This document shows positions 43,552 through 59,624 of a stretch of DNA of 64,000 nt, in pieces. Within the stretch, counting starts at the first letter, position 1, and each line of letters begins with the position of its first letter. Both the position numbers and the translations under genes were made by a program. The notes beneath the pieces were generated by a model. That model had not been told where the DNA came from. It was given only the letters and a program-made list of their open reading frames with translations, and made no database searches. Origin of the DNA: Candidatus Nomurabacteria bacterium (lineage in GTDB: Bacteria > Patescibacteriota > Patescibacteriia > UBA1558 > GWA2-36-10); NCBI GenBank assembly GCA_020632415.1, contig JACKFO010000002.1, positions 514,732-578,731 of the forward strand. The letters run 5' to 3'.

Positions 43552-44439
43552 TCAATCCAACGGACTTTTTAAATTCTGCCAAAAATCCCGCGCCACGGCA
43601 GTATAAATTTCCGTAGTTTTGATACTCTGATGTCCAAGTAGCTTTTGGATATAACGAATGCTCACGCCACTTTCCAAAAGATGTGTGGCAAAACTATGTC
43701 GCAAACTATGGCAAGAAACATCAGTCTTGATCCCAACTTTTTGACAAGCATGTTCAAATATTTTCTGCGCTGTTCTGATCTGCAAATGTCCTCTGCTTTC
43801 TGTGCTGCTAAATAAATATTTTTGCTCTGCTGGCAAATCAGCTAAATATTTTTCTGCCAAATCTATACTTTTTTGACTAAGCAAAGTATAACGATCTTTG
43901 TTACCTTTAGCACCACGAACAAAAATATATTTATTTTCTAAATCTAAATCCGAAATTTTTAAAACTACCACTTCAGAAACTCGCAAACCAGAGCCATATA
44001 GTAAGCTTAAGATTAACTGATGTTTAAGATTTGCGGCGGCTGCTAAAATACTTTTAACTTGCTCTTTAGACAATACTTGCGGTAAATGCTTTTCGCGCTT
44101 CGGCCGAACCACATTAAAAAACAGCCGCCGTTTTAAAACTTGGCTGTAGTAAAATTTCAAAGCTGAGATCACACTGTTGAGAGAAGTGTTAGTATAATTT
44201 TGACCTTTTAAAACCAAAAGGTAATTTTTGATATCTTGCTGATCAACTTCGCGGGCAGATTTTTGCACAAAATCCAAAAATCTTTGATTATGACTAAGGT
44301 AAGACTTGATTGTCCGTCGACTAAACCCACGGATAATTAACTCTTGTGCCAGACTAGCTAAAGGATGTGATTTGGAAACTAACTGATTGTTTGTTGATAA
44401 TTTTTGGGGCTCTTCAGACCTTTCAAAATCGCTTTTCAT
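43552..44439 (-). CDS. Tyrosine site-specific recombinase (Xer-like length, IntI-like C-terminal motif)
   Basis: Catalytic R...K...HxxR...Y set: LLYGSGLRVSE, HSLRHSFATHLL, LLGHQSIKTTEIYTAV; C-terminus ends KSPLD as in integron integrases, but the IntI-specific additional domain between patches II and III is absent. Confidence 0.8.
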   Translation of the reverse strand: MKSDFERSEEPQKLSTNNQLVSKSHPLASLAQELIIRGFSRRTIKSYLSHNQRFLDFVQKSAREVDQQDIKNYLLVLKGQNYTNTSLNSVISALKFYYSQVLKRRLFFNVVRPKREKHLPQVLSKEQVKSILAAAANLKHQLILSLLYGSGLRVSEVVVLKISDLDLENKYIFVRGAKGNKDRYTLLSQKSIDLAEKYLADLPAEQKYLFSSTESRGHLQIRTAQKIFEHACQKVGIKTDVSCHSLRHSFATHLLESGVSIRYIQKLLGHQSIKTTEIYTAVARDFWQNLKSPLD

Positions 44440-44600
44440 AAGGCTTTGTGATTAATGTTTAAGTATTTACATCTTGGCTAAAAATAGCTAAACTGTCAAT
44501 ATATACGTAAATACCTTGTTAGGTGAAATTTTACGAAACAAAACAAATAAATATTTTAGATTACAAGTCCCTTTTAAAAAAGAGAAATAGAAATTAAGCT

Positions 44601-45587
44601 TTACTGTTCTTGTAAAGCTATTTTGTTTAGAATAGTGTTTTCTAGGTTGTAATTATTACCATGTTGTAATAAGCCTAAATAAGAAGGCAGATTTTTGTTA
44701 TTAACTTTTTTAAGCATTCTTTGTTTTGTTTTAGTTCTTAATACTCTATAATTTGGAAAATTAACATAACCTAAATAATCTACACCACTGGCTAAAGTGG
44801 TTAAAGATACTTTCTTTGGATGTAAGCTAAGTTGAAGTTTTTTGCCAAGAAAATTTTTAATTTGAGGAAGAAGTTTAAGTAAATCTTCCTTGCTTTGGGA
44901 AAGAAAAACAAAATCATCTGCGTAACGAATATAATACTTTTGTTTAAGTTTGTGCTTAACATATTGATCAAATTCATTCATGTAGATATTAATAAAGAGT
45001 TGAGAAGTGAGATTACCCAAAGGAAGTCCTTTGTTTGAAGAGGTTTCAAAGCTATCTATGACTTTACTTAAAAGCCAAAGAATGTTTTGATCTTTAATAT
45101 ATTGAGAAAGAATGTCTTTTAAAATGTTGTGGTCAATATTGGCAAAAAACTTCTGAATGTCACATTTGAGTACATAACAAGTTTTAGTGTTATTTTGACT
45201 TACTTTTAAAGAATAGCTTTTGAATTTATTAATTGCTTTATGTGTTCCTTTATTGTTTCTACAAGAATAGGAGTCTTGAGTGAAAGTATGATCAAAAAAA
45301 GGATATAGTTGTCTATATATTGCATGGTGCAATAATCTATCTTTAACTTGAGCTTTGTGAATGTTTCTGGGCTTAGGATCAGAGATATTAAATGCCTCAT
45401 ATCCTGAATGTTGGTAAGTAAAATTGGCAAGTGAGGTGTGAAGCTGTATAATGTTATCTATTAAGTGTAAAGAAAATAATAAGACATCTGCTTTATGTTT
45501 TTTACCTTGAATAAATTCAGTGTAAGCTGAAAGTAAGTTATCTAAAGAAATAATATCTTTATAAGTATGAATGAATTGCCTTTTCAT
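44601..45587 (-). CDS. Diversity-generating retroelement reverse transcriptase
   Basis: RT motifs including YIRYADDFVFL (YxDD) and LGNLTSQLFINIY, i.e. the DGR-specific (I/L)GxxxSQ in place of QGxxxSP; about 330 aa without an X/maturase domain. The ORF track extends to 45647, but the start is probably the Met of MKRQFIHTYKDIISLDNLL. Confidence 0.85.
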   Translation of the reverse strand: MKRQFIHTYKDIISLDNLLSAYTEFIQGKKHKADVLLFSLHLIDNIIQLHTSLANFTYQHSGYEAFNISDPKPRNIHKAQVKDRLLHHAIYRQLYPFFDHTFTQDSYSCRNNKGTHKAINKFKSYSLKVSQNNTKTCYVLKCDIQKFFANIDHNILKDILSQYIKDQNILWLLSKVIDSFETSSNKGLPLGNLTSQLFINIYMNEFDQYVKHKLKQKYYIRYADDFVFLSQSKEDLLKLLPQIKNFLGKKLQLSLHPKKVSLTTLASGVDYLGYVNFPNYRVLRTKTKQRMLKKVNNKNLPSYLGLLQHGNNYNLENTILNKIALQEQ

Positions 45588-45709
45588 AATGATATGCAAA
45601 AATCTGCCTTTAGGCCTGCCCCCCCAGAGGGATATACGACCTACCAATTTTAGATAAAGCCACTGCGGCTTACAAAATATGGCATAAGTATTTAATAGAT
45701 TTTCCGCGC

Positions 45710-45985
45710 TTGGATAGATATACTTTGGGCGAGAAAATAGATTTGCTTTTTTGTGATGTCATTGAATTATTATTAGAAGCAGTTCAAAGCCAAAAAGAGC
45801 TAAAATTAAAAATAGTGGATAAGGCCTGCGTCCGGCTGGATATGTTAAAATATTTTTTGCAAATTGCTTGGAATTTAAAAACAATGGATAATAAAAAATA
45901 TCTAATAATTTCCAATGCTTTAAATGAAGTGGGCAAAATGCTGGGCGGCTGGAAAAAACAGGTGCAAAATATTACTCTGAAATAA
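45710..45985 (+). CDS. avd: DGR accessory variability determinant (Avd, four-helix-bundle protein); the N-terminus probably extends upstream to about 45640 with a non-ATG start
   Basis: C-terminal ...LNEVGKMLGGWKK resembles the BPP-1 bAvd EVGRILGSWI region; the in-frame upstream extension (LDKATAAYKIW...) also aligns with the Avd N-terminus; opposite strand to the RT and target gene. Confidence 0.65.
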   Translation: MDRYTLGEKIDLLFCDVIELLLEAVQSQKELKLKIVDKACVRLDMLKYFLQIAWNLKTMDNKKYLIISNALNEVGKMLGGWKKQVQNITLK

Positions 45986-45996
45986 AAAAGAAACTG

Positions 45997-46126
45997 GCGA
46001 ACAGCCGCGAAGCGACAGTTGTCGATCCAGTCATTGTCGATCCAGTTGAGATTGAGCTTGCGCTTGCTGTCATTACTGTTGAGGTAGCCGACGTTACGGT
46101 TGCCATTCAGGTTCTGCCAGACGGAA
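45997..46126 (-). repeat. DGR template repeat (TR), 130 bp
   Basis: 130/130 alignable to the VR, with 23 mismatches, all at TR adenines on the minus (coding-sense) strand; TR in the target frame is rich in AAC/AAT codons. Confidence 0.9.
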
Positions 46127-46384
46127 AAGCCGTTTTGTACAAAATATCTTCTTTAGCACCACCTCTTGAATACTCTTGAGGTTGTATTTTATTTGAGATC
46201 TTTAAATCTACCAATATCTTGCACCAAGTTTCTTTTTTGTGAGAATTTTAAGGTAAGTACTCTAGAATAAAATAATTTATCCTACTCTATTCTCGCTTCT
46301 CCTTAAATTCAGAGTTCAACCGTTTCAAACCTTAGCCTGAAACTGTCTCGTTTACTATCCAAAAAATATTTTAACAAATTTTAA

Positions 46385-46440
46385 AGAAAAAGAAAAACTC
46401 CGTCTCTCACCTTCTTAGGGGATATTGAGACGGAGTGGGT
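46385..46440 (-). terminator. Hairpin plus T-tract downstream of the DGR target gene (terminator and possibly the DGR-associated stem-loop)
   Basis: CTCCGTCTC-loop-GAGACGGAG 9-bp stem; T-rich tract on the minus strand. Confidence 0.6.
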
Positions 46441-46506
46441 TGTTGACGCTGGCCAAGTGTCCAAGGGACAATCAAGTCCCGAGTGCACAAGTGACCAAGA
46501 TCAGGT

Positions 46507-47094
46507 TTACTTGCGAACAGCCGCGAAGCGACAGTAGCCGAGCCAGCCACTGCCGACCCAGCTGAGAAAGAGCCCGCGCCCGCTGACAAGACCGTTGAGG
46601 TAGCCGACGTAACGGTGGCCACTCAGGCTCTGCCAGACGGAACCCAGAGCGACGATCGGAAACTGACGCTGCAGCTCGGGGTATTCGATACCGAGAGCGA
46701 GCAGCTCCGACATCGTCGCCGGACGTAGGCCTTCCGCATCCAGAGCCTTGAGCACAGCATCCGTGCTCATGGACTTGTCGAAGTGCTTGAAGATGATCTC
46801 ACACTGATGCCGCTCGTCAGCCTGGAAGTTCCGATCATTGATATCGGAGTTGCTCCAATCGTAGTTTCCAAACCTCACGTTCTCGCTGATGTCACCAGTG
46901 ACGCTGATCTGGTAGATCTTGGCATTGTTGCCGACGATCAGGTTGGCCAGTTCCTTGCGAAGCGTGCGGTTGCTGATGATCTGACGCAGGTTGTCGTCGT
47001 TACCGCCCAACGAATTGACTTCGTCGGACAAGGCCTTGACGATTTCGAAACCGGTGCCGAGACCACTGACGAACTCACTCTTCTGGCGTGCCAT
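46507..47094 (-). CDS. DGR target protein with C-terminal variable region (likely CLec-fold ligand-binding domain)
   Basis: SD AAGGAG before the ATG (MARQKSEF...); the C-terminal 43 aa are encoded by the VR; GC content about 55% against a genome value of about 33%. Confidence 0.8.
   Translation of the reverse strand: MARQKSEFVSGLGTGFEIVKALSDEVNSLGGNDDNLRQIISNRTLRKELANLIVGNNAKIYQISVTGDISENVRFGNYDWSNSDINDRNFQADERHQCEIIFKHFDKSMSTDAVLKALDAEGLRPATMSELLALGIEYPELQRQFPIVALGSVWQSLSGHRYVGYLNGLVSGRGLFLSWVGSGWLGYCRFAAVRK
46512..46641 (-). repeat. DGR variable repeat (VR)
   Basis: See TR; the identical 3' segment (IMH-like GC-rich segment CTGTCGCTTCGCGGCTGTTCGC) is shared by TR and VR. Confidence 0.9.
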
Positions 47095-47433
47095 GATAGG
47101 CTCCTTCACAATTTAGCTCACCTCTTATCTTTGCCTCTTGCAAAGACACAAGGCCTGCTTGTTTAGAAACGGCTATTTCCATATAGCCGCAGCGGCCAAG
47201 TTAGAATGTTTTAATTCTAGCTTAAACGCTGAGGCTATATTTGCAAGTAAAATATCAATGAACTTAATAATAAATAAGTATATCATATATTAGCTATTCT
47301 GTCAAGCATTATAACAAAAACTGCCATATTTAGGCTAAAATTAGCTAAAATACTTATTTCTACCAAACATTCTTCTCTATTTCTCTTTTTTAAGGGACTT
47401 GTTTATTATATAGGTAATTTGTTTCGTAAAACT

Positions 47434-47637
47434 GTCACCCAACACCCGGTATGCGGTTCGCGAGAGACTACTAGAAAAATATACTTATTGCAAATAAGTA
47501 TATTTTCATTTAAAGTTAATAAGGTATATTTTTCTTCAGTCCTCGCTCTCGTAAATCCCTCGACTCCAACGCATGATTATAAGATTATATCATGCAGGAG
47601 TCTCGGGACTTCGCATACCGTGGACAGTTAGCTGAAA
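47434..47637 (+). repeat. Integron attC-like imperfect palindrome (long form, no ORF inside); first element of the cassette array
   Basis: Left arm CACCCAACACCCGGTATGCGGTTCGCGAGAG is complementary to right arm CTCGGGACTTCGCATACCGTGGACAGTTAGCTG; the terminal boxes ACCCAAC / GTTAGCT fit RYYYAAC / GTTRRRY. Confidence 0.6.
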
Positions 47638-47734
47638 TATTCCTTTTCTTTTAATGAATAAATAAGCTATTATTAAAAAACATTTTCAAATTTCTTTTTC
47701 TTTATTATAAAGGGGAACCTGCCTGTCGGCAGGA

Positions 47735-50700
47735 GTGGATGTTTCCTCCGCTACGCTTCGGAAACAATTTAATAATTTAAATACAATGAATCAATATTAC
47801 AGAGGCTCAGAGTGGCGCAAGTGGGATCTTCACATTCACACTCCAAAATCAATAATCCAACAATACAGCGGCGATACTGAGGCTGTTTGGGATATATTTA
47901 TTAAAAAACTTGCACAATTGCCACCGGAGTTAAAAGTAATAGCCGTTACTGACTATCTTTTTTGTGATGGGTATGAGTATCTACTTACGCGCAAGGACGA
48001 GATACCAAATATCAAATTGATCATTCCCAACATCGAATTCCGTCTCAATACGTTTAGCGGTACACCAAACAATACAAAGCGACACAATTTCCATGTACTC
48101 TTTGACCCGTCGGTTTTAATTCAAGATATCCGAGATCAACTGCTCAACTGTCTTTCAACCGGCTACAAAATCGAGGACGGCACCGAATGGTTACAAACAC
48201 CCACAGTTCGCTCACTTGAAGAATTAGGACGTCAGATAAAAGCCGCCGCTCCACCCGAGAATACTGTACATACCAAATCCGATCTGAAAGTCGGCTTTGA
48301 AAACATCACCTACAAACGTGAGGACATCGAAATATTACTTAATAAAAATTGTTTTAAGGGTCGTTTCGTAACTGCAGTCGGCTATTCCGAATGGGATCAA
48401 TCCAGATGGGACCAGTCAACCGCAGAAAAGCGTACACTGATAAATACCGCAAACTTTTCACTTACAAGCTTGAATGACCCAGCAAAAATCGAGGAAAACC
48501 GTAGAGATCTTACCGCCAACAAACTAAATAATATTGTGCTTCACTCTTCCGATTCTCATGACATTGATTGCGTGGGAGAGACAATGCTTTGGATAAAAGC
48601 CGATCCTACCTTTGCAGGCTTAAAACAGGTTTTAAATGAGCCAGAAGCACGTGTCTTTATTGGTGCGACACCTCCAAACTACAAACCAGAGCATAAGGTT
48701 ATTTCTCGTATTTCAATTCCATCATCAAACGGATGGTTTGCTGATGATTTCTCTATAGAATTGAATAGAGATCTTGTTACCGTTATTGGCGGACGTGGTT
48801 CTGGTAAGTCTGCCCTAGCAGAAGTAATCGCCTGTGGTGCTGGCAGTGAGGACGAAAGCGACGATGCATTCTTGAAGAAAGCTACAAAGCATCCCAACCC
48901 CATCAAAGGTGCGGAGATTTTTGTGGAGTGGGCTGATGGAAACACTACTAGCTTTAAGGTTGGCGAGCTTCCCGAAGATCAAGGACTCGTACGTTATCTC
49001 CCCCAAGGAGTTGTAGAAGAATTATGCTCTCACAAGAATAGTGAAAAGCTTCAGAAACAAATCGAGAATGTTATCTTCCAAGCTCTTGATGATACGGAAC
49101 GCATGGGGGCGTCTGATTTCGATGAGCTGCAAATACGTATCTTGAGCGGCTTCCAATATGAGAAGGAGCAAATTGTAAAAAAGGTCCGTGACATAAACCG
49201 AAAACTAAGCAGCCTATCAACTGTCCTCTCCGGTTTGCCGGATAAACAAAAAATTCTCGATGACAGCAAGAAAGAGCTAGAACGGTTGATTAAAAGCTTA
49301 CCAGAACTTCCTGCTGAGGACAAAAAAGGTCAGGAGGAACTTGCCGCACTTGCGGAAATAAAGAAGAAATTTGAAACGAAGATTATCGAGCTTCAAAAAC
49401 GTCTCAACAAGATATTTGAAGTAGAATCCAAAGTAAAAGTTTTCAAAACAAAGGTTAAGGAATTCGGAGAAGAAACGAGCGCACTATTGTCGGATCTTGG
49501 TATCACTGACACATCGGCTTTCGATGTAAATGTAGACGATATCAATATTAAGGCCGTGTTGGACGAGAAGAAAAACGAGATTACTAACGATCTCAGGATT
49601 CTCAAGGAAGGTACGAAATTGGATGTCGCTATTGTATTGGGTATGGAAACAAATCTTCCGTTTGATAACCTTCAGACACTTAACCAAGGTATTGAGGACA
49701 AGCAAAAAGAAACGCGCGCATTTGAAACCACAAAACTCAAGTACCAACAGCAAAAGAAAACCGCGCTTGCGCTCGAAAGCTCGATCCAGGCTCTTGAAAA
49801 TGAAATATCCAAAATCAGCACTGAATCTACTCCAGAAAAGGAACGACTGGAAAAAGAGCGCATAAACACGTACTGCTCATATTTCAAGTTACTAGGCGAA
49901 GAAAAAATACAAATGGAAGTATTATATAAACCGCTTCAAAAATCACTCTTAGCCGGAACAGACACCGATAAGAAACTTATGTTTGAGGCACAAATAAACT
50001 ATCGCTTGGAAGCACACAATAAAAATGGCCTCGACATCATTGACCGCACGCGCAAAGGAAATTTCCGCGAGCCTGGAAACCTCAAAACTGCGCTTACTGA
50101 ACTCTGGGATGAAACGGTAAGACATAACTTCGATAAAGATATTCTCGAAACAGAAATTAAAAAAATCATCGAAGCGTTTACGACATGTGATGGGGAAAGC
50201 GTCACAATTGAAAGTCAACTGCGCGATAATTACGGCATTGAGGATTTTTACAATTGGCTATTTGATCCGACCAATTTTGAAATTGTGTCTTCACTTAAAT
50301 TCGACGACACAAATCTCTACGTACTTTCACCTGGACAGAAAGGTATTATTTTACTCATGCTTTTCTTAGAGATCGATAAAGGAGATTATCGACCACTTAT
50401 CATCGACCAACCTGAAGAGAACTTGGATAACCTCTCAGTCTATAAAGACCTCATTAACTACTTCCGAGAACGCAAACAATACCGACAAATCATCATGGTT
50501 ACTCACAACCCGAACCTTGTCGTAAACACTGATGCGGAGCAGATTATCGTTGCCAGCTATAATGGCAAGCACATACCTCGTTTGACGTACAGCTCAGGAT
50601 CACTTGAGGATCAGGCAAAACAGATTCCAAATACATCGACTATGGAACTTGAAGATGGGATTATTGAGCAAGTTTGTAACATTCTTGAAGGAGGCGAACG

Positions 50701-50764
50701 TGCATTTGAAAAACGGAAGAAAAAATATCAAATATCTCAAAAAATGAAAAATCAAGAGTCATAA
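47735..50764 (+). CDS. PHP-domain phosphoesterase fused to an SbcC/Rad50-like coiled-coil ABC ATPase (about 1000 aa); candidate defence/conflict-system protein
   Basis: N-terminal PHP motifs WDLHIHTPKS, IAVTDY, HNFHVLFDP; Walker A VIGGRGSGKSAL; about 300-aa coiled coil; C-terminal signature LSPGQKG, Walker B LIIDQPEENLD, H-loop MVTHNPN. The start is either GTG 47735 (overlapping SD AGGAG) or ATG 47786. Confidence 0.75.
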   Translation: MDVSSATLRKQFNNLNTMNQYYRGSEWRKWDLHIHTPKSIIQQYSGDTEAVWDIFIKKLAQLPPELKVIAVTDYLFCDGYEYLLTRKDEIPNIKLIIPNIEFRLNTFSGTPNNTKRHNFHVLFDPSVLIQDIRDQLLNCLSTGYKIEDGTEWLQTPTVRSLEELGRQIKAAAPPENTVHTKSDLKVGFENITYKREDIEILLNKNCFKGRFVTAVGYSEWDQSRWDQSTAEKRTLINTANFSLTSLNDPAKIEENRRDLTANKLNNIVLHSSDSHDIDCVGETMLWIKADPTFAGLKQVLNEPEARVFIGATPPNYKPEHKVISRISIPSSNGWFADDFSIELNRDLVTVIGGRGSGKSALAEVIACGAGSEDESDDAFLKKATKHPNPIKGAEIFVEWADGNTTSFKVGELPEDQGLVRYLPQGVVEELCSHKNSEKLQKQIENVIFQALDDTERMGASDFDELQIRILSGFQYEKEQIVKKVRDINRKLSSLSTVLSGLPDKQKILDDSKKELERLIKSLPELPAEDKKGQEELAALAEIKKKFETKIIELQKRLNKIFEVESKVKVFKTKVKEFGEETSALLSDLGITDTSAFDVNVDDINIKAVLDEKKNEITNDLRILKEGTKLDVAIVLGMETNLPFDNLQTLNQGIEDKQKETRAFETTKLKYQQQKKTALALESSIQALENEISKISTESTPEKERLEKERINTYCSYFKLLGEEKIQMEVLYKPLQKSLLAGTDTDKKLMFEAQINYRLEAHNKNGLDIIDRTRKGNFREPGNLKTALTELWDETVRHNFDKDILETEIKKIIEAFTTCDGESVTIESQLRDNYGIEDFYNWLFDPTNFEIVSSLKFDDTNLYVLSPGQKGIILLMLFLEIDKGDYRPLIIDQPEENLDNLSVYKDLINYFRERKQYRQIIMVTHNPNLVVNTDAEQIIVASYNGKHIPRLTYSSGSLEDQAKQIPNTSTMELEDGIIEQVCNILEGGERAFEKRKKKYQISQKMKNQES

Positions 50765-50860
50765 ATTTTGGGCTCGGGCATTCACCCCTTTATCCCCTCT
50801 GCCCTTCGCCCAAAAATGAAAAAAAGAAATTCACTAAGAATAAATACTAAGAATTTAAGA

Positions 50861-50891
50861 AAAGGAATACATCAGCCAACAGCGGATGTCC
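50861..50891 (+). repeat. attC-like short element (left arm only): CAGCCAACAGCGGATGTCCGATAAGCAAG
   Basis: Its reverse complement is found split at both ends of the long element at 51264-51374. Confidence 0.55.
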
Positions 50892-50921
50892 GATAAGCAA
50901 GTTTAATTTTAATTAAAATAT

Positions 50922-51272
50922 ATGCAAGAAAAAACAAAAAAACATCTAGTGAGTTATTTAATAATCTACTTAATAGTATCTGGATTATTATTAGTATTAT
51001 TACGGGACATGTACTCTGCTTTGGTTAGTGGATTATCATTAGTATTATTATTCATAATACTACCTCACAGAATATATCTGCTATTTAAAAATCCAAAAGC
51101 AGAGAATAATATATCAGGAAAAAACATAGCCTTGATACTATTTGCATCTATACTATGTATAGCTGGTTTTTTCATGTACTTGCTAAATGAAAATCTATAT
51201 TGGCCAGGCAAAATATTATTCGTTATAGGATTAACATACATTGTAAGTGCTGTAAGAAATACTAAAAATTAA
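50922..51272 (+). CDS. Cassette ORF: small membrane protein (3 TM helices)
   Basis: 116 aa hydrophobic ORF bounded by attC-like elements. Confidence 0.4.
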   Translation: MQEKTKKHLVSYLIIYLIVSGLLLVLLRDMYSALVSGLSLVLLFIILPHRIYLLFKNPKAENNISGKNIALILFASILCIAGFFMYLLNENLYWPGKILFVIGLTYIVSAVRNTKN

Positions 51273-51374
51273 ACTTGCTTATCCAAATTCCACTTTCGCT
51301 TTTGCGGTTTGCTCCGCAAAATTATACCGCAACGCTCAAGTGAAACTTCGGACATCCGCGTAATGTTAGCTGAA
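51264..51374 (+). repeat. attC-like long element ending in CGGACATCCGCGTAATGTTAGCTGAAAT
   Basis: Equals the reverse complement of the 50861-50891 element with a 75-bp internal insertion. Confidence 0.55.
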
Positions 51375-51448
51375 ATAAATTTTTCCTTTTTACAATAAAA
51401 CAAACCAAAATAACAAAAATACTTATTTGATTTTTTTATCAATATTAT

Positions 51449-51925
51449 ATGGACTTCTCTCAAGTAGACAATCAGACTAAAACCGAATTTAGAGCAACGA
51501 GAATTTTTATTCGTAGTCAAAATTTAGACGATACCGAAAAAAATTTTAAAAAAGAAATCGATGATCTAAGTATAGATATAATATATATTCCAAAATCTTT
51601 AAAATTTCAAATTGTTTCAGTTGATGGCGGGCCAGATAAATTAATGTCCAAAGGAGAATATGAGTGGTCATTTTTATTAACAGATTTTTTTAGAATATAC
51701 ATTAAAGAACCAATACTAAAAAAGACTAAAAAATACGCCGGTCAACCAGGTCAAGACACAATACTTATAATTCACGCATTAAATATGCCTGCAACGGAAG
51801 AAATAATTACAAAAACAATTGAAGATAATAAAAATCATATTAATAAATTAGGTAATGATAGTGGATTTAATAAAATTTTTTTAATTTTTGATTCTAAAGA
51901 AAAAGTTTTTGATTTATTCAAATAA
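51449..51925 (+). CDS. Cassette ORF: hypothetical protein (158 aa)
   Basis: ORF between attC-like elements; no motif recognised. Confidence 0.4.
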   Translation: MDFSQVDNQTKTEFRATRIFIRSQNLDDTEKNFKKEIDDLSIDIIYIPKSLKFQIVSVDGGPDKLMSKGEYEWSFLLTDFFRIYIKEPILKKTKKYAGQPGQDTILIIHALNMPATEEIITKTIEDNKNHINKLGNDSGFNKIFLIFDSKEKVFDLFK

Positions 51926-51983
51926 AAAAATCAAATCATACTATTAAATAATAAAAACATTTAAAAATCTAAGAAAAAATTTA

Positions 51984-52006
51984 CATCACCCAACAGCGGA
52001 TGTGAG
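51984..52006 (+). repeat. attC-like short element CATCACCCAACAGCGGATGTGAG
   Basis: Consensus short form, repeated at least 8 times in the array. Confidence 0.55.
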
Positions 52007-52038
52007 GCTCCGCCTTTAAGAATAATATAAAATTAATT

Positions 52039-52608
52039 ATGGACTTATACCAAAAAACAGAACAATTTGTCATAGATTCCTTTACTAAAGCTGGAGATGA
52101 ACGTGGAATTAAACATTTCTTAAGAACTGTTTATTGGTTAGAGCAATTAAAGCCAAATGCTGATGAAGCATTAAAAATTGCTGCAGTTGCTCATGACATT
52201 GAAAGAGCTTTTAGAAAACAAGATTATGCTAATGTCTTTAATTCTGAAAAAGGTTTTGCTAGTGATGAACATTTGAGTTATCATCAAACTGAAGGAGCAA
52301 AAATAATCTCTGAGTTTTTGAAAAAAGAAGGTGCGGATAAAAAAATTGTAGAGCGTGTTAAAATGTTAGTAGAAAAACACGAGATTGGTGGCAATGAAGA
52401 TCAAAATCTAGTAAAAGATGCTGATAGTGTAAGCTTTTTTGAAAATAACGCTAATCACTTTATAGAAGTGAAAGTTAAACAGACAAGCAAAGAGAAAGTA
52501 AAAGATAAATTTGATTGGATGTTTAATAGAATTACTTCTGACAAAGCTAAAGAGCTAGCAAAACCTTGGTATGAAGAAGGATTGCATAAATTGTCCTTAC
52601 TGGATTAA
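52039..52608 (+). CDS. Cassette ORF: HD-domain phosphohydrolase
   Basis: H ... AHDIER ... D metal-binding pattern. Confidence 0.55.
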   Translation: MDLYQKTEQFVIDSFTKAGDERGIKHFLRTVYWLEQLKPNADEALKIAAVAHDIERAFRKQDYANVFNSEKGFASDEHLSYHQTEGAKIISEFLKKEGADKKIVERVKMLVEKHEIGGNEDQNLVKDADSVSFFENNANHFIEVKVKQTSKEKVKDKFDWMFNRITSDKAKELAKPWYEEGLHKLSLLD

Positions 52609-52629
52609 TTTTATATTATTCTTAAGCTT

Positions 52630-52725
52630 CGCCCAAATCACTCGTTCGTTTACGTGATGCGCTTCGCGCTATTATATCACGACACTCACTCGTGACTTCT
52701 CACATCCGCGATATGTTAGGTGAAA
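52630..52725 (+). repeat. attC-like long element (TCACCCAAATCACTCG ... CTCACATCCGCGATATGTTAGGTGAAA)
   Basis: Consensus long form; near-identical copies at 53913, 57196, 60218 and 62541. Confidence 0.6.
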
Positions 52726-52769
52726 CCGAGAATTTATAAAATAAATATTTCTATTACAAAAAAAATAAA

Positions 52770-53315
52770 ATGCGATACGTTATTGTCTGTAATTTAAATG
52801 GTGATGTTGTCAAATATCACAAACAATTAGTTAATGAAATAGCTAAAAATTTTAATATTGCTAAGCCAAAAAAACAAAATCTACAACCACATTTTACACT
52901 TAAGTATGGATTTGAAACTAATAATATAAAAACAATTGAAAAGGCAATAAAAGATTTCTGCGCTAGAAACCATAAAGCTTCTGTTAAAATTAATGGTTTT
53001 GGCAAATTTAGAAAAGATGTAATATTTTGTAAAGTTATTCTTTCAAAAAAAGCTTACGCTATATTCACTGAACTTTTAAATGACTTGAAAAAAATCCCCA
53101 AATTAACATGGAATAAGAATGATGGAAAAAGGCTAAAATTCCATGCTACCATAGCTGCAGATTGTGAAGACAAATATACTGAAATTCAAAAATATTTAAA
53201 AGGAAAAGAAAAAAACTTTACTACCTATTTTGACAACATCACCATACTACAACAACAAAGAATAGTTGATGGAATAAGTATTTGGAAAACATTTAAAAAA
53301 TTTCAAATTAAATAG
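52770..53315 (+). CDS. Cassette ORF: 2H-phosphoesterase (LigT-like) family protein
   Basis: Two HxT/Sx motifs: PHFTLKY and FHATIAA. Confidence 0.55.
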   Translation: MRYVIVCNLNGDVVKYHKQLVNEIAKNFNIAKPKKQNLQPHFTLKYGFETNNIKTIEKAIKDFCARNHKASVKINGFGKFRKDVIFCKVILSKKAYAIFTELLNDLKKIPKLTWNKNDGKRLKFHATIAADCEDKYTEIQKYLKGKEKNFTTYFDNITILQQQRIVDGISIWKTFKKFQIK

Positions 53316-53326
53316 CAAATTCTCGA

Positions 53327-53373
53327 CATCACCCAACAGCGGATGTGAAGTTCGTAAAATAAAGAAAATCACC
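53327..53373 (+). repeat. attC-like short element with extended arm
   Basis: CATCACCCAACAGCGGATGTGAAGTTCGTAAAATAAAGAAAATCACC is the reverse complement of the flank and end of the 53894-54009 element. Confidence 0.55.
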
Positions 53374-53375
53374 TT

Positions 53376-53897
53376 ATGAAATATACTATTCCAACAAAAC
53401 AATGGTTGAATCCTAAAGTGGAAATAAAAAACTCCTCTATTGCAAGTAGAGGAATATTTGCTAAAGAGTTAATTAAAAAAGATGAGGTAGTTGTTATTTG
53501 GGGTGGAGATAATTATACAGATTATCAAGGGATGCTCAAAGCTAAAAAAGAAGGTAAATTGGTAATGCATTGGGATGATGATCTATATAGTTTTGAGAAT
53601 AGACAAAGTGATGACACTTATTTTATAAACCATTCTTGTAATTCTAATCTTTGGTTAAAAGATCAATTTACTTTAATTGCTAAAAGAGATATAAATATTG
53701 GAGAGGAAATAACCATTGATTATGCTTTATTTGAAGGAGATGAAGATTATATAGCTCAATGGGAATGTAATTGTAAAGAAGTGGATTGTAGAAAAAAGAT
53801 TACTGGAAATGATTGGAAAATAAAAGCTGTACAAGAAAGATATAAAGATCATTTCTTGCCTTATATTAATAGAAAGATTAATAATTTAAACAAGTGA
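53376..53897 (+). CDS. Cassette ORF: SET-domain protein (putative protein-lysine methyltransferase)
   Basis: NHSCNSNLW and EEITIDY SET motifs plus a Cys-rich post-SET region CNCKEVDCRKK. Confidence 0.6.
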   Translation: MKYTIPTKQWLNPKVEIKNSSIASRGIFAKELIKKDEVVVIWGGDNYTDYQGMLKAKKEGKLVMHWDDDLYSFENRQSDDTYFINHSCNSNLWLKDQFTLIAKRDINIGEEITIDYALFEGDEDYIAQWECNCKEVDCRKKITGNDWKIKAVQERYKDHFLPYINRKINNLNK

Positions 53898-54009
53898 TTT
53901 TCTTTATTTCACTCACCCAAATCACTCGTTCGTTTACGTGATGCGCTTCGCGCTATTATATCACGACACTCACTCGTGACTTCTCACATCCGCGATATGT
54001 TAGGTGAAA
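53894..54009 (+). repeat. attC-like long element
   Basis: Identical to 52630-52725 from CCCAAAT onward. Confidence 0.6.
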
Positions 54010-54053
54010 CCGAGAATTTATAAAATAAATATTTCTATTACAAAAAAAATAAA

Positions 54054-54599
54054 ATGCGATACGTTATTGTCTGTAATTTAAATGGTGATGTTGTCAAATA
54101 TCACAAACAATTAGTTAATGAAATAGCTAAAAATTTTAATATTGCTAAGCCAAAAAAACAAAATCTACAACCACATTTTACACTTAAGTATGGATTTGAA
54201 ACTAATAATATAAAAACAATTGAAAAGGCAATAAAAGATTTCTGCGCTAGAAACCATAAAGCTTCTGTTAAAATTAATGGTTTTGGCAAATTTAGAAAAG
54301 ATGTAATATTTTGTAAAGTTATTCTTTCAAAAAAAGCTTACGCTATATTCACTGAACTTTTAAATGACTTGAAAAAAATCCCCAAATTAACATGGAATAA
54401 GAATGATGGAAAAAGGCTAAAATTCCATGCTACCATAGCTGCAGATTGTGAAGACAAATATACTGAAATTCAAAAATATTTAAAAGGAAAAGAAAAAAAC
54501 TTTACTACCTATTTTGACAACATCACCATACTACAACAACAAAGAATAGTTGATGGAATAAGTATTTGGAAAACATTTAAAAAATTTCAAATTAAATAG
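54054..54599 (+). CDS. Cassette ORF: 2H-phosphoesterase, exact duplicate of 52770-53315
   Basis: 181/181 aa identical, with identical upstream element and downstream left arm. Confidence 0.55.
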   Translation: MRYVIVCNLNGDVVKYHKQLVNEIAKNFNIAKPKKQNLQPHFTLKYGFETNNIKTIEKAIKDFCARNHKASVKINGFGKFRKDVIFCKVILSKKAYAIFTELLNDLKKIPKLTWNKNDGKRLKFHATIAADCEDKYTEIQKYLKGKEKNFTTYFDNITILQQQRIVDGISIWKTFKKFQIK

Positions 54600-54610
54600 C
54601 AAATTCTCGA

Positions 54611-54633
54611 CATCACCCAACAGCGGATGTGAG
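54611..54633 (+). repeat. attC-like short element
   Basis: CATCACCCAACAGCGGATGTGAG. Confidence 0.55.
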
Positions 54634-54704
54634 AAAAAAAGAGAAATAAAAAATTTGAAAAATAAAACCCTCTCGCCACAACAAGTGCAACGAGAGGGAA
54701 AATG

Positions 54705-55007
54705 TCAGTCTTCGATTTCCAGGTTTCCTCTACGGCAACTCAAATCATAATACCCGGAAAATTTAATCCGACAATCACGATCTTCATCCCCGGTGAAATA
54801 TGCGTCTTGAGATGCAAGAGTAATCAAAAACTGAGCACGTTTCTTGTCCATGGACTCAGCCGAGATTACGAAAAATTCGCAAGAACGAACAACGGTTTCT
54901 GAAGTGGTTCTCACGGTAAATCTGACCGTCTTACCCTCTTCAAAGAGAGCTAAGGCGAAATCCCATTTTCCGGGCCCATTAGTGATGACAAACTGCTTGG
55001 AAGACAT
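54705..55007 (-). CDS. Cassette ORF (inverted): hypothetical 100-aa protein, GC-rich
   Basis: ORF with its own terminator hairpin (CCCTCTCG/CGAGAGGG plus T-tract at 54664-54697). Confidence 0.4.
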   Translation of the reverse strand: MSSKQFVITNGPGKWDFALALFEEGKTVRFTVRTTSETVVRSCEFFVISAESMDKKRAQFLITLASQDAYFTGDEDRDCRIKFSGYYDLSCRRGNLEIED

Positions 55008-55159
55008 AACGACTTCCTCCTTTTGAAATGAACTGTGAATTTTAAGGCTTCACTTTGAACCTGTTCATCTTACGATGCACCAAGCTTAACAAAGCCTGGA
55101 ATTACTGAGAATTTAACATAATACTACGTAATTAACTTTTAGTCAAGTCACTAAGTTAA

Positions 55160-55262
55160 TTTTTTATTTCTCTTTTTCTCCAAATTGCCACCTCGTTACG
55201 GTAGTTGTATAATTATACTACCTTCACTCGGCGTCAACTTCTCACATCCGCGATATGTTAGA
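55160..55262 (+). repeat. attC-like long element variant carrying a consensus sigma70 promoter
   Basis: TTGCCA (55185-55190), 17 bp, TATAAT (55208-55213); ends CTCACATCCGCGATATGTTAGACG; about 95% identical to 63440-63545. Confidence 0.55.
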
Positions 55263-55398
55263 CGCCATCGTATTTTTCTCTTATAATCTTTTATTAAATT
55301 AAGAGATTATTTTTTATTTTTAAAGTAAAAGAAAAAGGACCACCCGGTAAGGGGCAACCCTTGATGTGAAGTGGAAGATGGAGCTTCCAAAATCTCAA

Positions 55399-55800
55399 CT
55401 ATCTGGACAGGACAGCTGCTCCAATAGCACGAGCTGCTTCCTGAGCATCTTTCTCTGTCCATCCAGACTGTTTCAAATCAGCATTGATCCGTTGCACATT
55501 GACTCTATCTGGGTGTGTAGCACACTCCTTGCAAATCATAACTCCCCTAGAAACTGAGACGTGCCCAGAAAAGACTGTGACGTCACAGTCTTGCGTTCTC
55601 AAACTCTGACGAATGGCAGTATCCTGGCCGAAGTACACAGTGGCACTCTCCTTCCAATTCCACCTGTCTCCGCAGTTAGGGCAGCCGCCGAAATGATGAA
55701 GATGACCGATGAAATTCTTCCAGACACTCGTCTTGGGGACGAAGTAACATCCGGAGAATACAAGAGCCAAGGTAATGAAAAGTGCGGTGTAGCTAAACAT
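55399..55800 (-). CDS. Cassette ORF (inverted): membrane-anchored Cys-rich protein, GC-rich
   Basis: Start chosen at MFSYTALFITLALVF with a GGAGAC SD; N-terminal TM helix; CPNCGDRW, CKEC. Confidence 0.4.
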   Translation of the reverse strand: MFSYTALFITLALVFSGCYFVPKTSVWKNFIGHLHHFGGCPNCGDRWNWKESATVYFGQDTAIRQSLRTQDCDVTVFSGHVSVSRGVMICKECATHPDRVNVQRINADLKQSGWTEKDAQEAARAIGAAVLSR

Positions 55801-55920
55801 GGTTGTCTCCAAAATCTGATTGTCGTTTAGGTCTGATTTAATATATAAATATAGCATATATTTCAAATTATGTCAAGTACCTAAAAATACTCCTGTAAAT
55901 AGAGAAAAATGCGACAAGCG

Positions 55921-56070
55921 TCCAACACCCGGTATGCAGTTTCCTCGCCTCCGCTAAAGCTACGGCGAAGTTCACCCAAATCGTGTCTTCCCTTATGCGG
56001 TTAGCTTCGCTATAATTATACCGCAGTCGGAAAGACACGACTTCGCATACCGTGGACAGTTAGGTGAAAT
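55921..56070 (+). repeat. attC-like full element without internal ORF
   Basis: Arms CAACACCCGGTATGCAG / TCGCATACCGTGGACAGTTAGGTG; nested CGTGTCTTCC/GGAAGACACG stem; internal TATAAT. Confidence 0.55.
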
Positions 56071-56113
56071 TATACAGATTTTTTCTTGTTTTTTAGACAC
56101 TAATAATATAAAT

Positions 56114-56788
56114 ATGGGACAACAATTCAAAGAGCATGTCCAACGCTCAAAAAATATTTGGATAATATTTATTTCTGTTTTGGGAATCGCCTTAATTGTT
56201 GGTGGAGGTATGTACTTATTACAACAGAATAAAATTATCAGTGTTCAAAAAGATTTACGGGTTTTAACATCTAATCTACAAAATCAAATCACCCAAAGTC
56301 AAACAGAAAATGAAATTTTAAAACAAAATGCCGCTAATCTTCAATCTGAATTGAATGCATTGAAAAATATATCAGAAAACAAAACTGATAATAATTCTTC
56401 AATATATTGTACTAGTGAACCAACGCCGACTGTAATCGGTCGGGATATTTATCCGATTAACGCTGATAAGTATGGCAATATAGGTTTTCTAGGAGAACTT
56501 TTTACAGCTGATGATTGTGGGTCAGATAGAGTTTCCATGATTTTCGGTGTAACTGGTAATAACTATACTCTCTGGCCAGATATTGGACTCAAAAATTATC
56601 CTTCAAAAGAATTATTATCAGTTTTACAATTAATTGGTTTTGAAACTGGCAGTACCTGTGGCGGTTCCTCAGACCTAGATACTTGCACTCATTGGTCGCT
56701 TAAAAAAACTATTCCCTTGAACGAAATTATAAAACTAAAACCATACGCTAAAGAAATAAAAAGTAGCGGCTGTATTAATTGTGGATAG
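56114..56788 (+). CDS. Cassette ORF: membrane-anchored coiled-coil protein with Cys-containing C-terminal domain
   Basis: TM helix at aa 15-35, then a Q/N-rich coiled coil. Confidence 0.45.
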   Translation: MGQQFKEHVQRSKNIWIIFISVLGIALIVGGGMYLLQQNKIISVQKDLRVLTSNLQNQITQSQTENEILKQNAANLQSELNALKNISENKTDNNSSIYCTSEPTPTVIGRDIYPINADKYGNIGFLGELFTADDCGSDRVSMIFGVTGNNYTLWPDIGLKNYPSKELLSVLQLIGFETGSTCGGSSDLDTCTHWSLKKTIPLNEIIKLKPYAKEIKSSGCINCG

Positions 56789-56803
56789 AAAAAATCTGCA
56801 TAA

Positions 56804-56826
56804 CATCACCCAACAGCGAATGTGAG
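56804..56826 (+). repeat. attC-like short element
   Basis: CATCACCCAACAGCGAATGTGAG. Confidence 0.5.
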
Positions 56827-56862
56827 GTTACGAGAAAATAACTAATAATCTTTATACTATAT

Positions 56863-57183
56863 ATGAATCTAGAAGAATTATTACAATTTATTAACAACGA
56901 AGATCAAAGATTGATCCAATTTAAGAATGGTAATAATGAAAAAGAAAGGATACTTTCAAGAACAGTAAAAATGACAGAAGAGTTAGGAGAATTATGTAAT
57001 GAAGTATTATCTTTTATTGGTGATCAAAGAAAAGAAAAACTAGAAAGAACAGATAAAGATAACTTACCAAATGAATTTGCTGACGTAATTATCACTACTC
57101 TACTTCTTGCTAAAACTATGAATGTAGATATAGTAAAAGCTTTAGAAGATAAAATTGAGAAAATAAAGAAGAGAAATTATTAG
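56863..57183 (+). CDS. Cassette ORF: MazG-like nucleoside triphosphate pyrophosphohydrolase
   Basis: EELGELCNEVL (EExGE motif), small all-alpha protein. Confidence 0.5.
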   Translation: MNLEELLQFINNEDQRLIQFKNGNNEKERILSRTVKMTEELGELCNEVLSFIGDQRKEKLERTDKDNLPNEFADVIITTLLLAKTMNVDIVKALEDKIEKIKKRNY

Positions 57184-57195
57184 TTATTTTCTCTT

Positions 57196-57292
57196 CACCC
57201 AAATCACTCGTTCGTTTACGTGATGCGCTTCGCGCTATTATATCACGACACTCACTCGTGACTTCTCGCATCCGCAATATGTTAGGTGAAAT
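57196..57292 (+). repeat. attC-like long element
   Basis: CACCCAAATCACTCG ... GTTAGGTGAAAT. Confidence 0.6.
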
Positions 57293-57314
57293 AATTTTAG
57301 AAATTTAAATACCA

Positions 57315-57689: not shown

Positions 57690-57690
57690 T

Positions 57691-58338: not shown

Positions 58339-58359
58339 AAAATTTCTAAAATTACATCG

Positions 58360-58389
58360 CACAACACCCGGTATGCGGTTCGCGAGAAC
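58360..58389 (+). repeat. attC-like short element, second sequence family (CACAACACCCGGTATGCGGTTCGCGAGAAC)
   Basis: Matches the left arm of the 47434 element. Confidence 0.55.
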
Positions 58390-58408
58390 TAAAGAAATAT
58401 AACAAACT

Positions 58409-58924: not shown

Positions 58925-58938
58925 TCAAATAATTTCTT

Positions 58939-59040: not shown

Positions 59041-59099
59041 ATTCCTTTTCTTTTTTCAGATTGGTATCATCATTATTTAAATAATTTTATATAAACAAT

Positions 59100-59604: not shown

Positions 59605-59624
59605 TAAATAGTAAATAACTTAAC

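What the first reader, a model, noticed from the sequence alone, without database searches (positions are those of the whole stretch)
47735..50764. PHP phosphoesterase fused to an SbcC/Rad50-like coiled-coil ABC ATPase as the first cassette
One polypeptide combines a PHP-type metal-dependent phosphoesterase (WDLHIHTPKS, HNFHVLFDP) with a split ABC ATPase head (Walker A GGRGSGKS; signature LSPGQKG; Walker B LIIDQPEE; H-loop THNPN) interrupted by an approximately 300-residue coiled coil. This is the Rad50/SbcC/SMC architecture, with a PHP nuclease in place of an Mre11/SbcD partner. Its position inside a cassette array, next to a DGR and a recombinase, is typical of defence islands. It could be a self-contained ATP-dependent nuclease immunity or conflict effector.
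Basis: partly seen in the sequence, partly recalled or inferred. Interest (0 to 1): 0.7.

Follow-up and report, generated by a model that had tools for sequence, protein, structure and literature searches.

The report
PHP nuclease–SMC-like ATPase defence gene
This gene encodes a single large protein that joins a metal-dependent PHP nuclease domain to a Rad50/SMC-like ATPase; it is an ordinary member of the already named TrlF/Ppl family of probable anti-phage proteins, unusual only in sitting as a very large cassette in an integron-like array of a tiny uncultured (CPR) bacterium.

Summary

The architecture is not new. The protein scores 572.6 bits (cut-off 350) over the full NCBIfam model 'TrlF family AAA-like ATPase'. 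A bona fide anti-phage Ppl protein fits that same model end to end, so Ppl is a sister clade with the same architecture.

Catalytic residues of both domains are nearly invariant across 77 relatives. Homologues are scattered across many phyla and more than 1,100 plasmids. In 28 of 79 genome loci they lie within four genes of Type I or Type III restriction-modification genes. No partner gene is conserved.

The most likely function is a single-gene, nucleotide-regulated nuclease that defends against phage or mobile DNA.

It is the second cassette, not the first: the neighbouring DGR is itself bounded by cassette sites.

Verdict: new member of a known kind, low to moderate interest.

The parts
47786..50764 (+). 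Coding sequence of the TrlF/Ppl-family PHP-ABC ATPase (992 aa plus stop). The mechanical ORF starts at GTG 47735, but ATG 47786 is the likely start.
   Evidence: 100% identity and coverage to the 992-aa NCBI protein; NF045780, 572.6 bits.
47786..48685 (+). PHP (polymerase and histidinol phosphatase) metal-dependent phosphoesterase domain, residues 1-300. Motif residues are D14, H16, H18, D56, E84, H103, D256 and H258.
48698..49105 (+). N-terminal lobe of the ABC ATPase head, residues about 305-440: Walker A GGRGSGKS (335-342) and Q-loop Q407.
   Evidence: (Rad50, SMC, AriA profile hits).
49118..49951 (+). Intramolecular coiled-coil insertion, residues 445-722 (about 280 aa). No CxxC zinc hook. 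Contains a conserved motif KETRAFETTKLKYQQQK at residues 640-657.
   Evidence: Helices 445-503, 510-570, 585-643 and 649-722 in the AF2 model. Foldseek matches to SMC, Rad50 and JetC arms. No C..C. Invariant T643, E647, K650, K652, Q654.
49976..50620 (+). C-terminal lobe of the ABC ATPase head, residues about 731-945: signature LSPGQKG (847), Walker B LIIDQPEE (871), D-loop D881, H-loop THNPN (906).
   Evidence: SMC_N; Ppl, AriA C-terminal hits.
47436..47638 (+). attC-like site upstream of the gene (R'' CACCCAAC ... R' GTTAGCT). It marks the end of the preceding DGR cassette and the start of this one.
   Evidence: (D6, D8). The bottom strand folds at -43.5 kcal/mol, z = -8.8, with R''/R' and L''/L' paired.
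47627..47652 (+). Left cassette boundary: the R' core GTTAGCT plus an extension that is an inverted repeat of 50857-50880.
   Evidence: (D8, I8).
50857..50892 (+). Right cassette boundary: the inverted-repeat extension plus the R''-L'' half (CAGCCAACAGCGGATGTCCG) of the cassette's own attC.
   Evidence: (D7).
51351..51376 (+). L'-R' half of the same attC (GACATCCGCGTAATGTTAGCTGAAAT). A 116-aa hydrophobic, probably membrane, ORF (50922..51272) lies between the two halves.
   Evidence: (D2, I6).
43552..44439 (-). Tyrosine recombinase at the head of the array. It is XerA-type ('recombinase/integron integrase') and falls below the classical IntI cut-off.
   Evidence: NF040815 253.3 bits against cut-off 220; TIGR02249 197.6 against cut-off 265.
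44518..44529 (+). attI-like core GTTAGGTGAAAT, 79 bp from the recombinase start codon. It is the first site of the array.
   Evidence: (D16).
44530..47435 (-). DGR unit occupying the first cassette position: RT 44601..45647, TR 45993-46126, VR 46509-46642 inside target gene 46507..47109.
   Evidence: D9, I10; 22 of 23 TR/VR mismatches fall at TR adenines.

Best explanation
The gene encodes a stand-alone, single-polypeptide defence nuclease of the TrlF/Ppl family. Shown here: an N-terminal PHP metal-dependent phosphoesterase domain, structurally closest to nucleic-acid-cleaving PHP enzymes, is fused to a Rad50/SMC-type ABC ATPase whose two head lobes are separated by a coiled coil of about 280 residues. 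All catalytic residues are conserved. The gene is horizontally mobile and keeps company with restriction-modification systems. Inferred: two copies engage head to head around ATP, as all Rad50/SMC-type ABC ATPases do. The head and coiled coil act as the nucleotide and DNA sensor that gates the PHP nuclease. By analogy with the related E. coli Ppl, nucleotide binding would keep the PHP 3'-5' exonuclease off. Phage-induced nucleotide depletion together with free 3'-OH DNA ends would switch it on, destroying replicating phage (and possibly host) DNA. In this genome it was acquired as an unusually large cassette (about 3.2 kb, or 3.7 kb with its attC) in the second position of an integron-like array headed by a XerA-type recombinase.
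Against: No member of this clade has been tested for phage defence. The protein falls far below the Ppl-specific cut-off (119.6 against 1000 bits), and the PADLOC Ppl model matches only the C-terminal 135 residues, so Ppl's mechanism may not transfer. The only experimental context for the name TrlF is a Photorhabdus temperature-restriction operon, in which no mutation mapped to trlF and its role was left open. The neighbourhood frequencies have no matched background control. Substrate (DNA or RNA, exo- or endonuclease), oligomeric state and trigger are all inferred. The predicted PHP site has Tyr where canonical PHP enzymes and Ppl have His (Y57).
Confidence: 0.7

Rival explanations
1. It is one component of a TRL-type (temperature restriction locus) growth-control system. 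As in Photorhabdus, TrlF would act with TrlG (AlbA_2 + HATPase_c_4) and the small regulator TrlR to arrest replication under stress, rather than act against phage.
For: The family takes its name from that operon. TrlG-like genes (AlbA_2 + HATPase_c_4 + HTH) lie directly downstream of the homologue in 4 of 79 loci.
Against: No TrlG-like sequence exists anywhere in the 64-kb window (tblastn, E up to 10, no hit). 75 of 79 loci lack it. In Photorhabdus all suppressor mutations mapped to trlG and none to trlF. The TRL operon itself looks like a defence island module.
Confidence: 0.08
2. It is a housekeeping DNA-repair or chromosome-maintenance protein, an SbcCD/Rad50-Mre11 or RecN analogue with a built-in nuclease, serving the host genome.
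For: The best PDB profile and fold hits are Rad50, SMC, RecN and MukB. PHP domains act as proofreading and repair nucleases in Pol III, PolX and EndoQ. CPR genomes are reduced and could use a fused enzyme.
Against: Scores on the Rad50 and SMC family models are negligible (11.1 against 700 and 12.7 against 567 bits). There is no zinc hook or hinge. The gene sits in a cassette array, not in conserved synteny, and its GC3 is an outlier. Close relatives are scattered across unrelated phyla, plasmids and a phage, next to R-M genes and recombinases.
Confidence: 0.05
3. It serves the mobile element rather than the cell. It would be a toxic or addictive nuclease that stabilises the cassette array, or a weapon against competing plasmids and other mobile elements, rather than a phage-triggered immune protein.
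For: Family members are very common on conjugative plasmids (820 of 1,142 matching plasmid records) and beside recombinases and IS elements. SMC-like relatives such as Wadjet JetC target plasmids. Chromosomal integron arrays are known to carry stabilising toxin systems (general knowledge, not tested here).
Against: No antitoxin-like partner is conserved. The nearest characterised relative acts against phage. This overlaps with the main explanation rather than excluding it.
Confidence: 0.12

Closest known systems
Ppl (E. coli and enterobacterial plasmid single-gene anti-phage system; NCBIfam NF042955, PADLOC Ppl)
   Same: Same full-length architecture: N-terminal PHP, split ABC ATPase, central helical insert. 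A bona fide Ppl fits the TrlF model end to end at 462.6 bits. The PHP and ATPase catalytic residues align identically. Both are single-gene and found on mobile DNA.
   Different: Different clade: 119.6 bits against a 1000-bit cut-off on the Ppl model. The PADLOC Ppl model matches only residues 844-978. The window protein is 992 aa against 895 aa for Ppl. It has Y57 where Ppl has His. It has not been tested.
TrlF of the Photorhabdus laumondii temperature restriction locus (trlG-trlF-trlR)
   Same: Same NCBIfam family. It was annotated as 'histidinol phosphatase' for the same PHP domain.
   Different: The window has no TrlG or TrlR partners. The Photorhabdus gene's own role was never established.
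Rad50-Mre11 / SbcCD
   Same: ABC ATPase head split by an antiparallel coiled coil and coupled to a metal-dependent nuclease. Best PDB profile hit is Rad50 at 1.1e-7, and Foldseek gives 6e-10.
   Different: The nuclease is a PHP domain fused in cis, not a separate Mre11/SbcD calcineurin-fold subunit. The coiled coil is short and has no CxxC hook. The protein is not a member by family score.
ABC-ATPase-plus-nuclease defence proteins: PARIS AriA/AriB, Gabija GajA and other OLD-family nucleases
   Same: An ABC ATPase sensor controlling a nuclease in phage defence. AriA is the second-best PDB profile hit at 3.9e-6. PADLOC AriA and GajA models give weak C-lobe hits.
   Different: Those systems use TOPRIM nucleases and have short or no coiled coils. 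Here the nuclease is PHP and the coiled coil is SMC-like.
SMC-like defence complexes: Wadjet JetC and Lamassu LmuB
   Same: Head plus coiled-coil fold matches (JetC 1e-9; LmuB 1e-5). All are in defence contexts.
   Different: Those are multi-subunit systems with kleisin-like and separate nuclease subunits. This is a single gene.

Membership tests
TrlF family AAA-like ATPase (NCBIfam NF045780) | Full-length match above the curated cut-off | tested here: met
   572.6 bits against cut-off 350; residues 6-982 onto model positions 1-944 of 944.
TrlF family AAA-like ATPase (NCBIfam NF045780) | N-terminal PHP phosphoesterase fold with conserved metal-ligand motifs | tested here: met
TrlF family AAA-like ATPase (NCBIfam NF045780) | Split ABC ATPase head with complete catalytic motifs and a central coiled coil | tested here: met
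   Walker A 335, Q407, signature 847, Walker B 871, H-loop 906. Helical 445-722. SMC and Rad50 fold hits.
TRL operon (Photorhabdus trlG-trlF-trlR system) | Adjacent TrlG (AlbA_2 + HATPase_c_4) and small TrlR regulator | tested here: not met
   No TrlG-like sequence in the window. Neighbours are a DGR target gene and a 116-aa hydrophobic ORF. TrlG-like gene is adjacent in only 4 of 79 homologue loci.
Ppl anti-phage protein (NF042955 / PADLOC PDLC02208) | Score above the Ppl-specific cut-off | tested here: not met
   119.6 bits against cut-off 1000, in two partial stretches. PADLOC Ppl matches only residues 844-978. The control Ppl scores 1351.7.
Ppl anti-phage protein (NF042955 / PADLOC PDLC02208) | Anti-phage activity; NTP-inhibited 3'-5' ssDNA exonuclease | not testable with these tools
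   Known for E. coli Ppl only from the literature (PMC11482910, PMC12904381).
Rad50 / SbcC / SMC proper | Membership by family model | tested here: not met
   Rad50 PRK03918 11.1 bits against cut-off 700. SMC_prok_B 12.7 against 567. Pfam SMC_N 36.1 against 40.
Rad50 / SbcC / SMC proper | Zinc hook (CxxC) or hinge at the coiled-coil apex, and a separate Mre11/SbcD or kleisin partner | tested here: not met
   No C..C anywhere and no Cys between residues 415 and 696. No such partner gene is adjacent.
Rad50 / SbcC / SMC proper | Vertical conservation and synteny in related genomes | tested here: not met
   Closest relatives are in unrelated phyla with unrelated neighbours. GC3 is an outlier.
Integron gene cassette | Bounded by attC sites with RYYYAAC / GTTRRRY cores that fold as single strands | tested here: met
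   R' GTTAGCT at 47627 and R'' CAGCCAAC at 50873. Twelve L/R site pairs, all in one orientation. The upstream attC folds with z = -8.8. No IntegronFinder-type attC model was available.
Integron gene cassette | Array headed by an integron integrase (IntI with its specific extra domain) | tested here: inconclusive
   The 295-aa recombinase passes NF040815 'XerA / integron integrase' (253.3 against 220) but not TIGR02249 IntI (197.6 against 265), where it matches in two stretches.

The most novel reading that the evidence does not exclude
The untested TrlF clade may not simply copy Ppl. With its longer SMC-like coiled coil and the conserved KETRAFETxKxKYQQQK element, it could sense DNA ends or structures directly, as Rad50 and Wadjet do, and license a cis-fused PHP nuclease. 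That would be a one-protein SbcCD-like immune effector. Its presence here would also show that integron-like arrays of CPR bacteria, run by a XerA-type recombinase, stockpile full-size defence genes and even a complete DGR as cassettes. These arrays would use attC sites whose loops themselves carry genes.
Probability: 0.15. Interest if true: 0.6.

Novelty: new member of a known kind. Interest (0 to 1): 0.27.

Why it matters
For the protein itself, little changes. It extends a named, very large family (about 1,760 clusters at 50% identity with E <= 1e-30) into a Nomurabacteria genome and supports the view that the family is a defence family. Two points have some value. First, the clade that carries most of the family's diversity has never been tested experimentally, so a cheap phage-challenge experiment would annotate thousands of genes. 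Second, the setting is unusual. A full-length 992-aa defence gene is carried as a cassette of 3.2-3.7 kb, whereas integron-borne defence systems are reported to be 'streamlined' to fit small cassettes (bioRxiv 10.1101/2024.07.02.601686). It lies next to a DGR that also appears to be a cassette, in an ultra-small CPR genome.

Tried and rejected

2. I looked for a solved Ppl/TrlF structure and found none. This covered phmmer, a profile search and Foldseek against the PDB.

3. I looked for a TrlG/TrlR partner in the window and found none. None of the window's neighbouring proteins recur beside homologues.

4. I asked whether homologues elsewhere are cassettes of the same attC family. The motifs GTTAGGTGAAAT and CACCCAACAGCGGATGT are absent from all 83 homologue loci.

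5. A metagenome scan with the 17-mer CCCAACAGCGGATGTGA gave 39 contigs. Each had one isolated match, no partner half-site and widely varying GC, so I treat them as chance hits.

6. Rfam found only four tRNAs in the window and nothing near the gene.

7. The promoter and terminator scan of 47100-51500 found no more sites than shuffled sequence. It gave no terminator and no convincing promoter for the gene.

8. A literature search for TrlF function found only the Photorhabdus preprint. The primary paper on the Ppl mechanism is not in the library, so I cite only the review's summary.

9. I tested whether the 123-nt right-hand attC module is a self-sufficient attC. It folds only weakly on its own (z = -1.5 to -2.1), so the question stays open.
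Full report
**Observation**

The window contains an uninterrupted + strand ORF at 47735..50764. The positions, numbered in the 992-aa protein, are WDLHIHTPKS 13, HNFHVLFDP 100, GGRGSGKS 335, LSPGQKG 847, LIIDQPEE 871 and THNPN 906.

The real start is almost certainly ATG 47786. The identical 992-aa protein is deposited as a hypothetical protein of a Candidatus Nomurabacteria MAG on an 842-kb contig. All homologues align from about that residue.

**Anatomy**

Pfam sees only a sub-threshold SMC_N match and no PHP domain. A profile of 14 N-terminal domains also fails to reach PHP structures or PHP Pfam models by sequence.

The full-length model (pLDDT 82.9) has four parts: the PHP domain, an ABC N-lobe (about residues 305-440), a helical segment (445-722) and an ABC C-lobe (731-945). 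Foldseek's best PDB hits are:
- an SMC head with coiled coil, 5e-10
- Rad50 in the Mre11-Rad50-Nbs1 complex, 6e-10
- Wadjet JetC, 1e-9
- MukB, RecN, Lamassu LmuB and PARIS AriA
- a PHP esterase, matching the N-terminus

A family profile against PDB sequences gives Rad50 at 1.1e-7, AriA at 3.9e-6, and SMC. The coiled coil has no CxxC hook.

**Conservation of the active sites**

I aligned 77 full-length relatives: 74 of roughly 27-74% identity from 79 genome loci, a bona fide Ppl, a Klebsiella plasmid TrlF and the query. The PHP residues D14, H16, H18, D56, E84, H103, D256 and H258 are invariant or nearly so. The same holds for the ATPase residues K341, Q407, S848, G850, D874, E877, D881 and H907. 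Ppl has the same residue at each of these positions.

One position differs. Y57 is His in Ppl and in 3 of the 77 sequences.

**What it belongs to**

NCBIfam places the protein in 'TrlF family AAA-like ATPase' (NF045780) with 572.6 bits against a cut-off of 350, covering the whole model. It also gives sub-threshold matches to the Spaf_1101 family and to 'anti-phage protein Ppl' (119.6 bits against a cut-off of 1000).

As a control I scanned a Ppl annotated on Klebsiella plasmid pKP91. It scores 1351.7 bits on the Ppl model. It also scores 462.6 bits, above the cut-off and end to end, on the TrlF model. hhalign of the family profile against this Ppl gives 99.5% probability. Ppl is therefore a clade that fits the same full-length family model and shares the architecture. 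The window protein belongs to the family but not to the Ppl clade.

The name TrlF comes from the Photorhabdus 'temperature restriction locus' trlG-trlF-trlR. There TrlF was annotated as a histidinol phosphatase, and no suppressor mutation mapped to it.

Ppl is a validated single-gene defence with ATPase and PHP domains (PMC11482910). A 2026 review describes it as a 3'-5' ssDNA exonuclease. NTPs bound to both the PHP and NTPase domains inhibit it. Phage-induced nucleotide depletion, together with 3'-OH ends made by phage homing endonucleases, activates it (PMC12904381).

**Distribution and neighbourhood**

The family is large. About 1,760 clusters at 50% identity match with E <= 1e-30, and most are 950-1050 aa and match over the full length.

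Relatives of 60-86% identity occur in several CPR lineages, WOR-3, Omnitrophota, Ignavibacteria, Rhizobiales, Zixibacteria and a Hodarchaeales archaeon. In the plasmid collection 1,142 records match, 820 of them conjugative, and the matches are annotated as TrlF family or Ppl. Seven phage records match.

I clustered the neighbours in 79 genome loci and annotated the clusters with Pfam. The recurrent neighbours are:
- Type III R-M methylase and restriction genes
- Type I HsdM, HsdS and HsdR
- SNF2 helicases
- DUF2130
- a TrlG-like AlbA_2 + HATPase_c_4 + HTH protein, in four loci only

In 28 of 79 loci, R-M components lie within four genes. A PADLOC scan of 119 immediate neighbours confirms Type III methylases (8), Type I specificity subunits (7) and Type I restriction enzymes (7).

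Other individual contexts point the same way:
- An 81%-identical copy lies directly after hsdM-hsdS-hsdR and before a Dcm methylase and a GHKL ATPase.
- An 86%-identical copy abuts a large serine recombinase.
- A Klebsiella plasmid copy sits beside an Abi protein and IS elements.

No partner gene is conserved. 109 of 158 immediate neighbours fell outside the recurrent annotated gene clusters. These frequencies lack a matched background, so 'enrichment' is not formally shown.

**Context in the window**

Upstream are ordinary host genes (infB, rbfA, clpP, rny, a YifB/ComM-type ATPase). Next comes a 295-aa tyrosine recombinase (43552..44439, minus strand). It passes the 'XerA / integron integrase' model but not the classical IntI model.

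From 44518 to the end of the window there is an integron-like array. An attI-like GTTAGGTGAAAT is followed by twelve pairs of half-sites, R''-L'' (CACCCAAC...) and L'-R' (...GTTAGGTG). All are in one orientation and they fall into two sequence types.

The site just upstream of the gene (47436-47638) folds strongly as single-stranded DNA (-43.5 kcal/mol, z = -8.8), with the R and L boxes paired. The gene is bounded by R' plus an extension (47627-47652) and by the inverted copy of that extension plus R'' (50857-50892). It therefore has cassette boundaries like the other genes of the array.

It is not the first cassette. The DGR lies between the attI-like site and the first attC. It has its own flanking inverted repeat, 44574-44602 with 47365-47393. 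The DGR consists of:
- RT, 44601..45647
- TR, 45993-46126
- VR, 46509-46642, with 22 of 23 TR/VR mismatches at TR adenines

The gene's GC (41%, GC3 40%) stands apart from host genes (GC3 29-32%) and from the small cassettes (GC3 20-27%). That fits recent acquisition. Integron cassettes are already known as banks of defence genes. However, those systems are described as streamlined to fit small cassettes (bioRxiv 10.1101/2024.07.02.601686). A cassette of 3.2-3.7 kb is atypically large.

**Mechanism**

Shown: the domain folds, intact catalytic motifs, family membership, mobility, R-M-rich neighbourhoods, the absence of a conserved partner, and cassette boundaries.

Inferred: ATP-sandwich dimerisation of the heads, a general property of Rad50/SMC-type ABC ATPases. 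Also inferred is control of the cis-fused PHP nuclease by the nucleotide state of the head and by DNA, and, by analogy with Ppl, activation by nucleotide depletion and free 3' ends.

My confidence is about 0.95 that this is a TrlF/Ppl-family PHP-ABC ATPase. It is about 0.7 that it is a defence or conflict nuclease. It is about 0.4 that the Ppl activation logic applies in detail.

**Rivals**

- A TRL-type growth-control module is unlikely, because no TrlG or TrlR is present.
- A housekeeping Rad50/SbcC/RecN-like repair role is unlikely. Family scores are negligible, there is no hook or partner, the distribution is patchy and the composition is foreign.
- An element-serving role, such as array stabilisation or anti-plasmid competition, is not excluded. 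It overlaps with the main reading.

**Novelty and score**

The architecture, however, is a named and widely annotated family with an experimentally characterised relative. This is a new member of a known kind. The residual interest lies in the untested clade and in the unusual CPR integron setting.

**Dead ends**

- A search for related arrays by attC motif found nothing: none in the 83 homologue loci, and only chance-like single hits in metagenomes.
- Rfam found only tRNAs.
- The promoter and terminator scan was uninformative.

Noticed in passing
window 44518-47638: A complete DGR occupies the first cassette position. It comprises RT 44601..45647, TR 45993-46126, VR 46509-46642 in target gene 46507..47109, with 22 of 23 TR/VR mismatches at TR adenines. 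It lies between an attI-like GTTAGGTGAAAT and an attC-like site, with its own flanking inverted repeat (44574-44602 / 47365-47393). One library search for DGR plus integron/attC found no report of a DGR carried as an integron cassette.
   Followed up: partly
window 50873-63545: In 8 of 12 attC-like sites the R''-L'' half and the L'-R' half are 486-741 nt apart and enclose a whole ORF. Six of these have Pfam domains: HD/DUF4202 52039, SET 53376, MazG 56863, HD_4 58409, peptidase S51 59625, HIT 62054. Each enclosed gene has its own unique inverted repeat extending the stem. The same attC type occurs without a gene at 47436-47638 (about 85-nt insert) and with a gene at 58358-59040. Under the canonical cassette definition, most cassettes would carry a second gene inside the attC loop, including the 116-aa hydrophobic ORF 50922..51272 in the TrlF cassette. 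This is unexplained.
   Followed up: partly
window 52632-53348 and 53916-54632: There is an exact 717-bp duplication: a 2H/LigT-like phosphoesterase gene plus the 110-nt right-hand attC module before it and the R''-L'' half-site after it. The copies are separated by the SET-domain gene. The boundaries fall inside conserved repeat sequence (CCCAAAT... and ...GGATGTGA), not at the canonical G|TT crossover point.
   Followed up: partly
window 51449-62527: The small cassettes are rich in nucleotide and phosphoester-acting enzymes: two HD-domain proteins, MazG-like, NUDIX, HIT, and LigT/2H in two copies. They also include two SET-domain proteins, an Asp/Glu racemase and a peptidase S51.
   Followed up: no
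window 60390-60863, 61251-61871, 63625-63984 (all minus strand): Three minus-strand cassettes encode small hydrophobic proteins that share a C-terminal motif (for example ...APMLWYIFVHQDQIKTAIAS and ...TPMIWYIVTHQGQIKTAMIGH). The last is largely Ala/Ile repeats encoded by GC-rich tandem repeats (63771-63971). No Pfam match was found for the two that were scanned; the third (63625-63984) was not scanned.
   Followed up: no
window 43552-44439: The recombinase heading the array is XerA-type: NF040815 'tyrosine recombinase/integron integrase' 253 bits against cut-off 220. It falls below the classical IntI model (TIGR02249, 198 against 265) and is only 295 aa long.
   Followed up: partly
window 49703-49756 (protein residues 640-657): A strongly conserved element KETRAFETTKLKYQQQK sits at a helix break in the returning arm of the coiled coil. 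T643, E647, K650, K652 and Q654 are invariant in 20 homologues of 47-71% identity to the query. Its function is unknown. It may be a joint, elbow or DNA-contact site.
   Followed up: no
window 47277-47305 (minus strand): The best sigma-70-like promoter match in the region (TTGACA-17-TATACT with an extended TG, 11 of 12) points into the DGR target gene. It lies in the AT-rich spacer just before the attC.
   Followed up: no
L082 (8001-12277) and L083 (841-13973): The two closest relatives with context (86% and 81% identity) are not in cassette arrays. One abuts a large serine recombinase. The other is wedged between a Type I R-M operon with a HARE-HTH protein and a Dcm methylase with a HATPase_c_3 protein.
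   Followed up: yes
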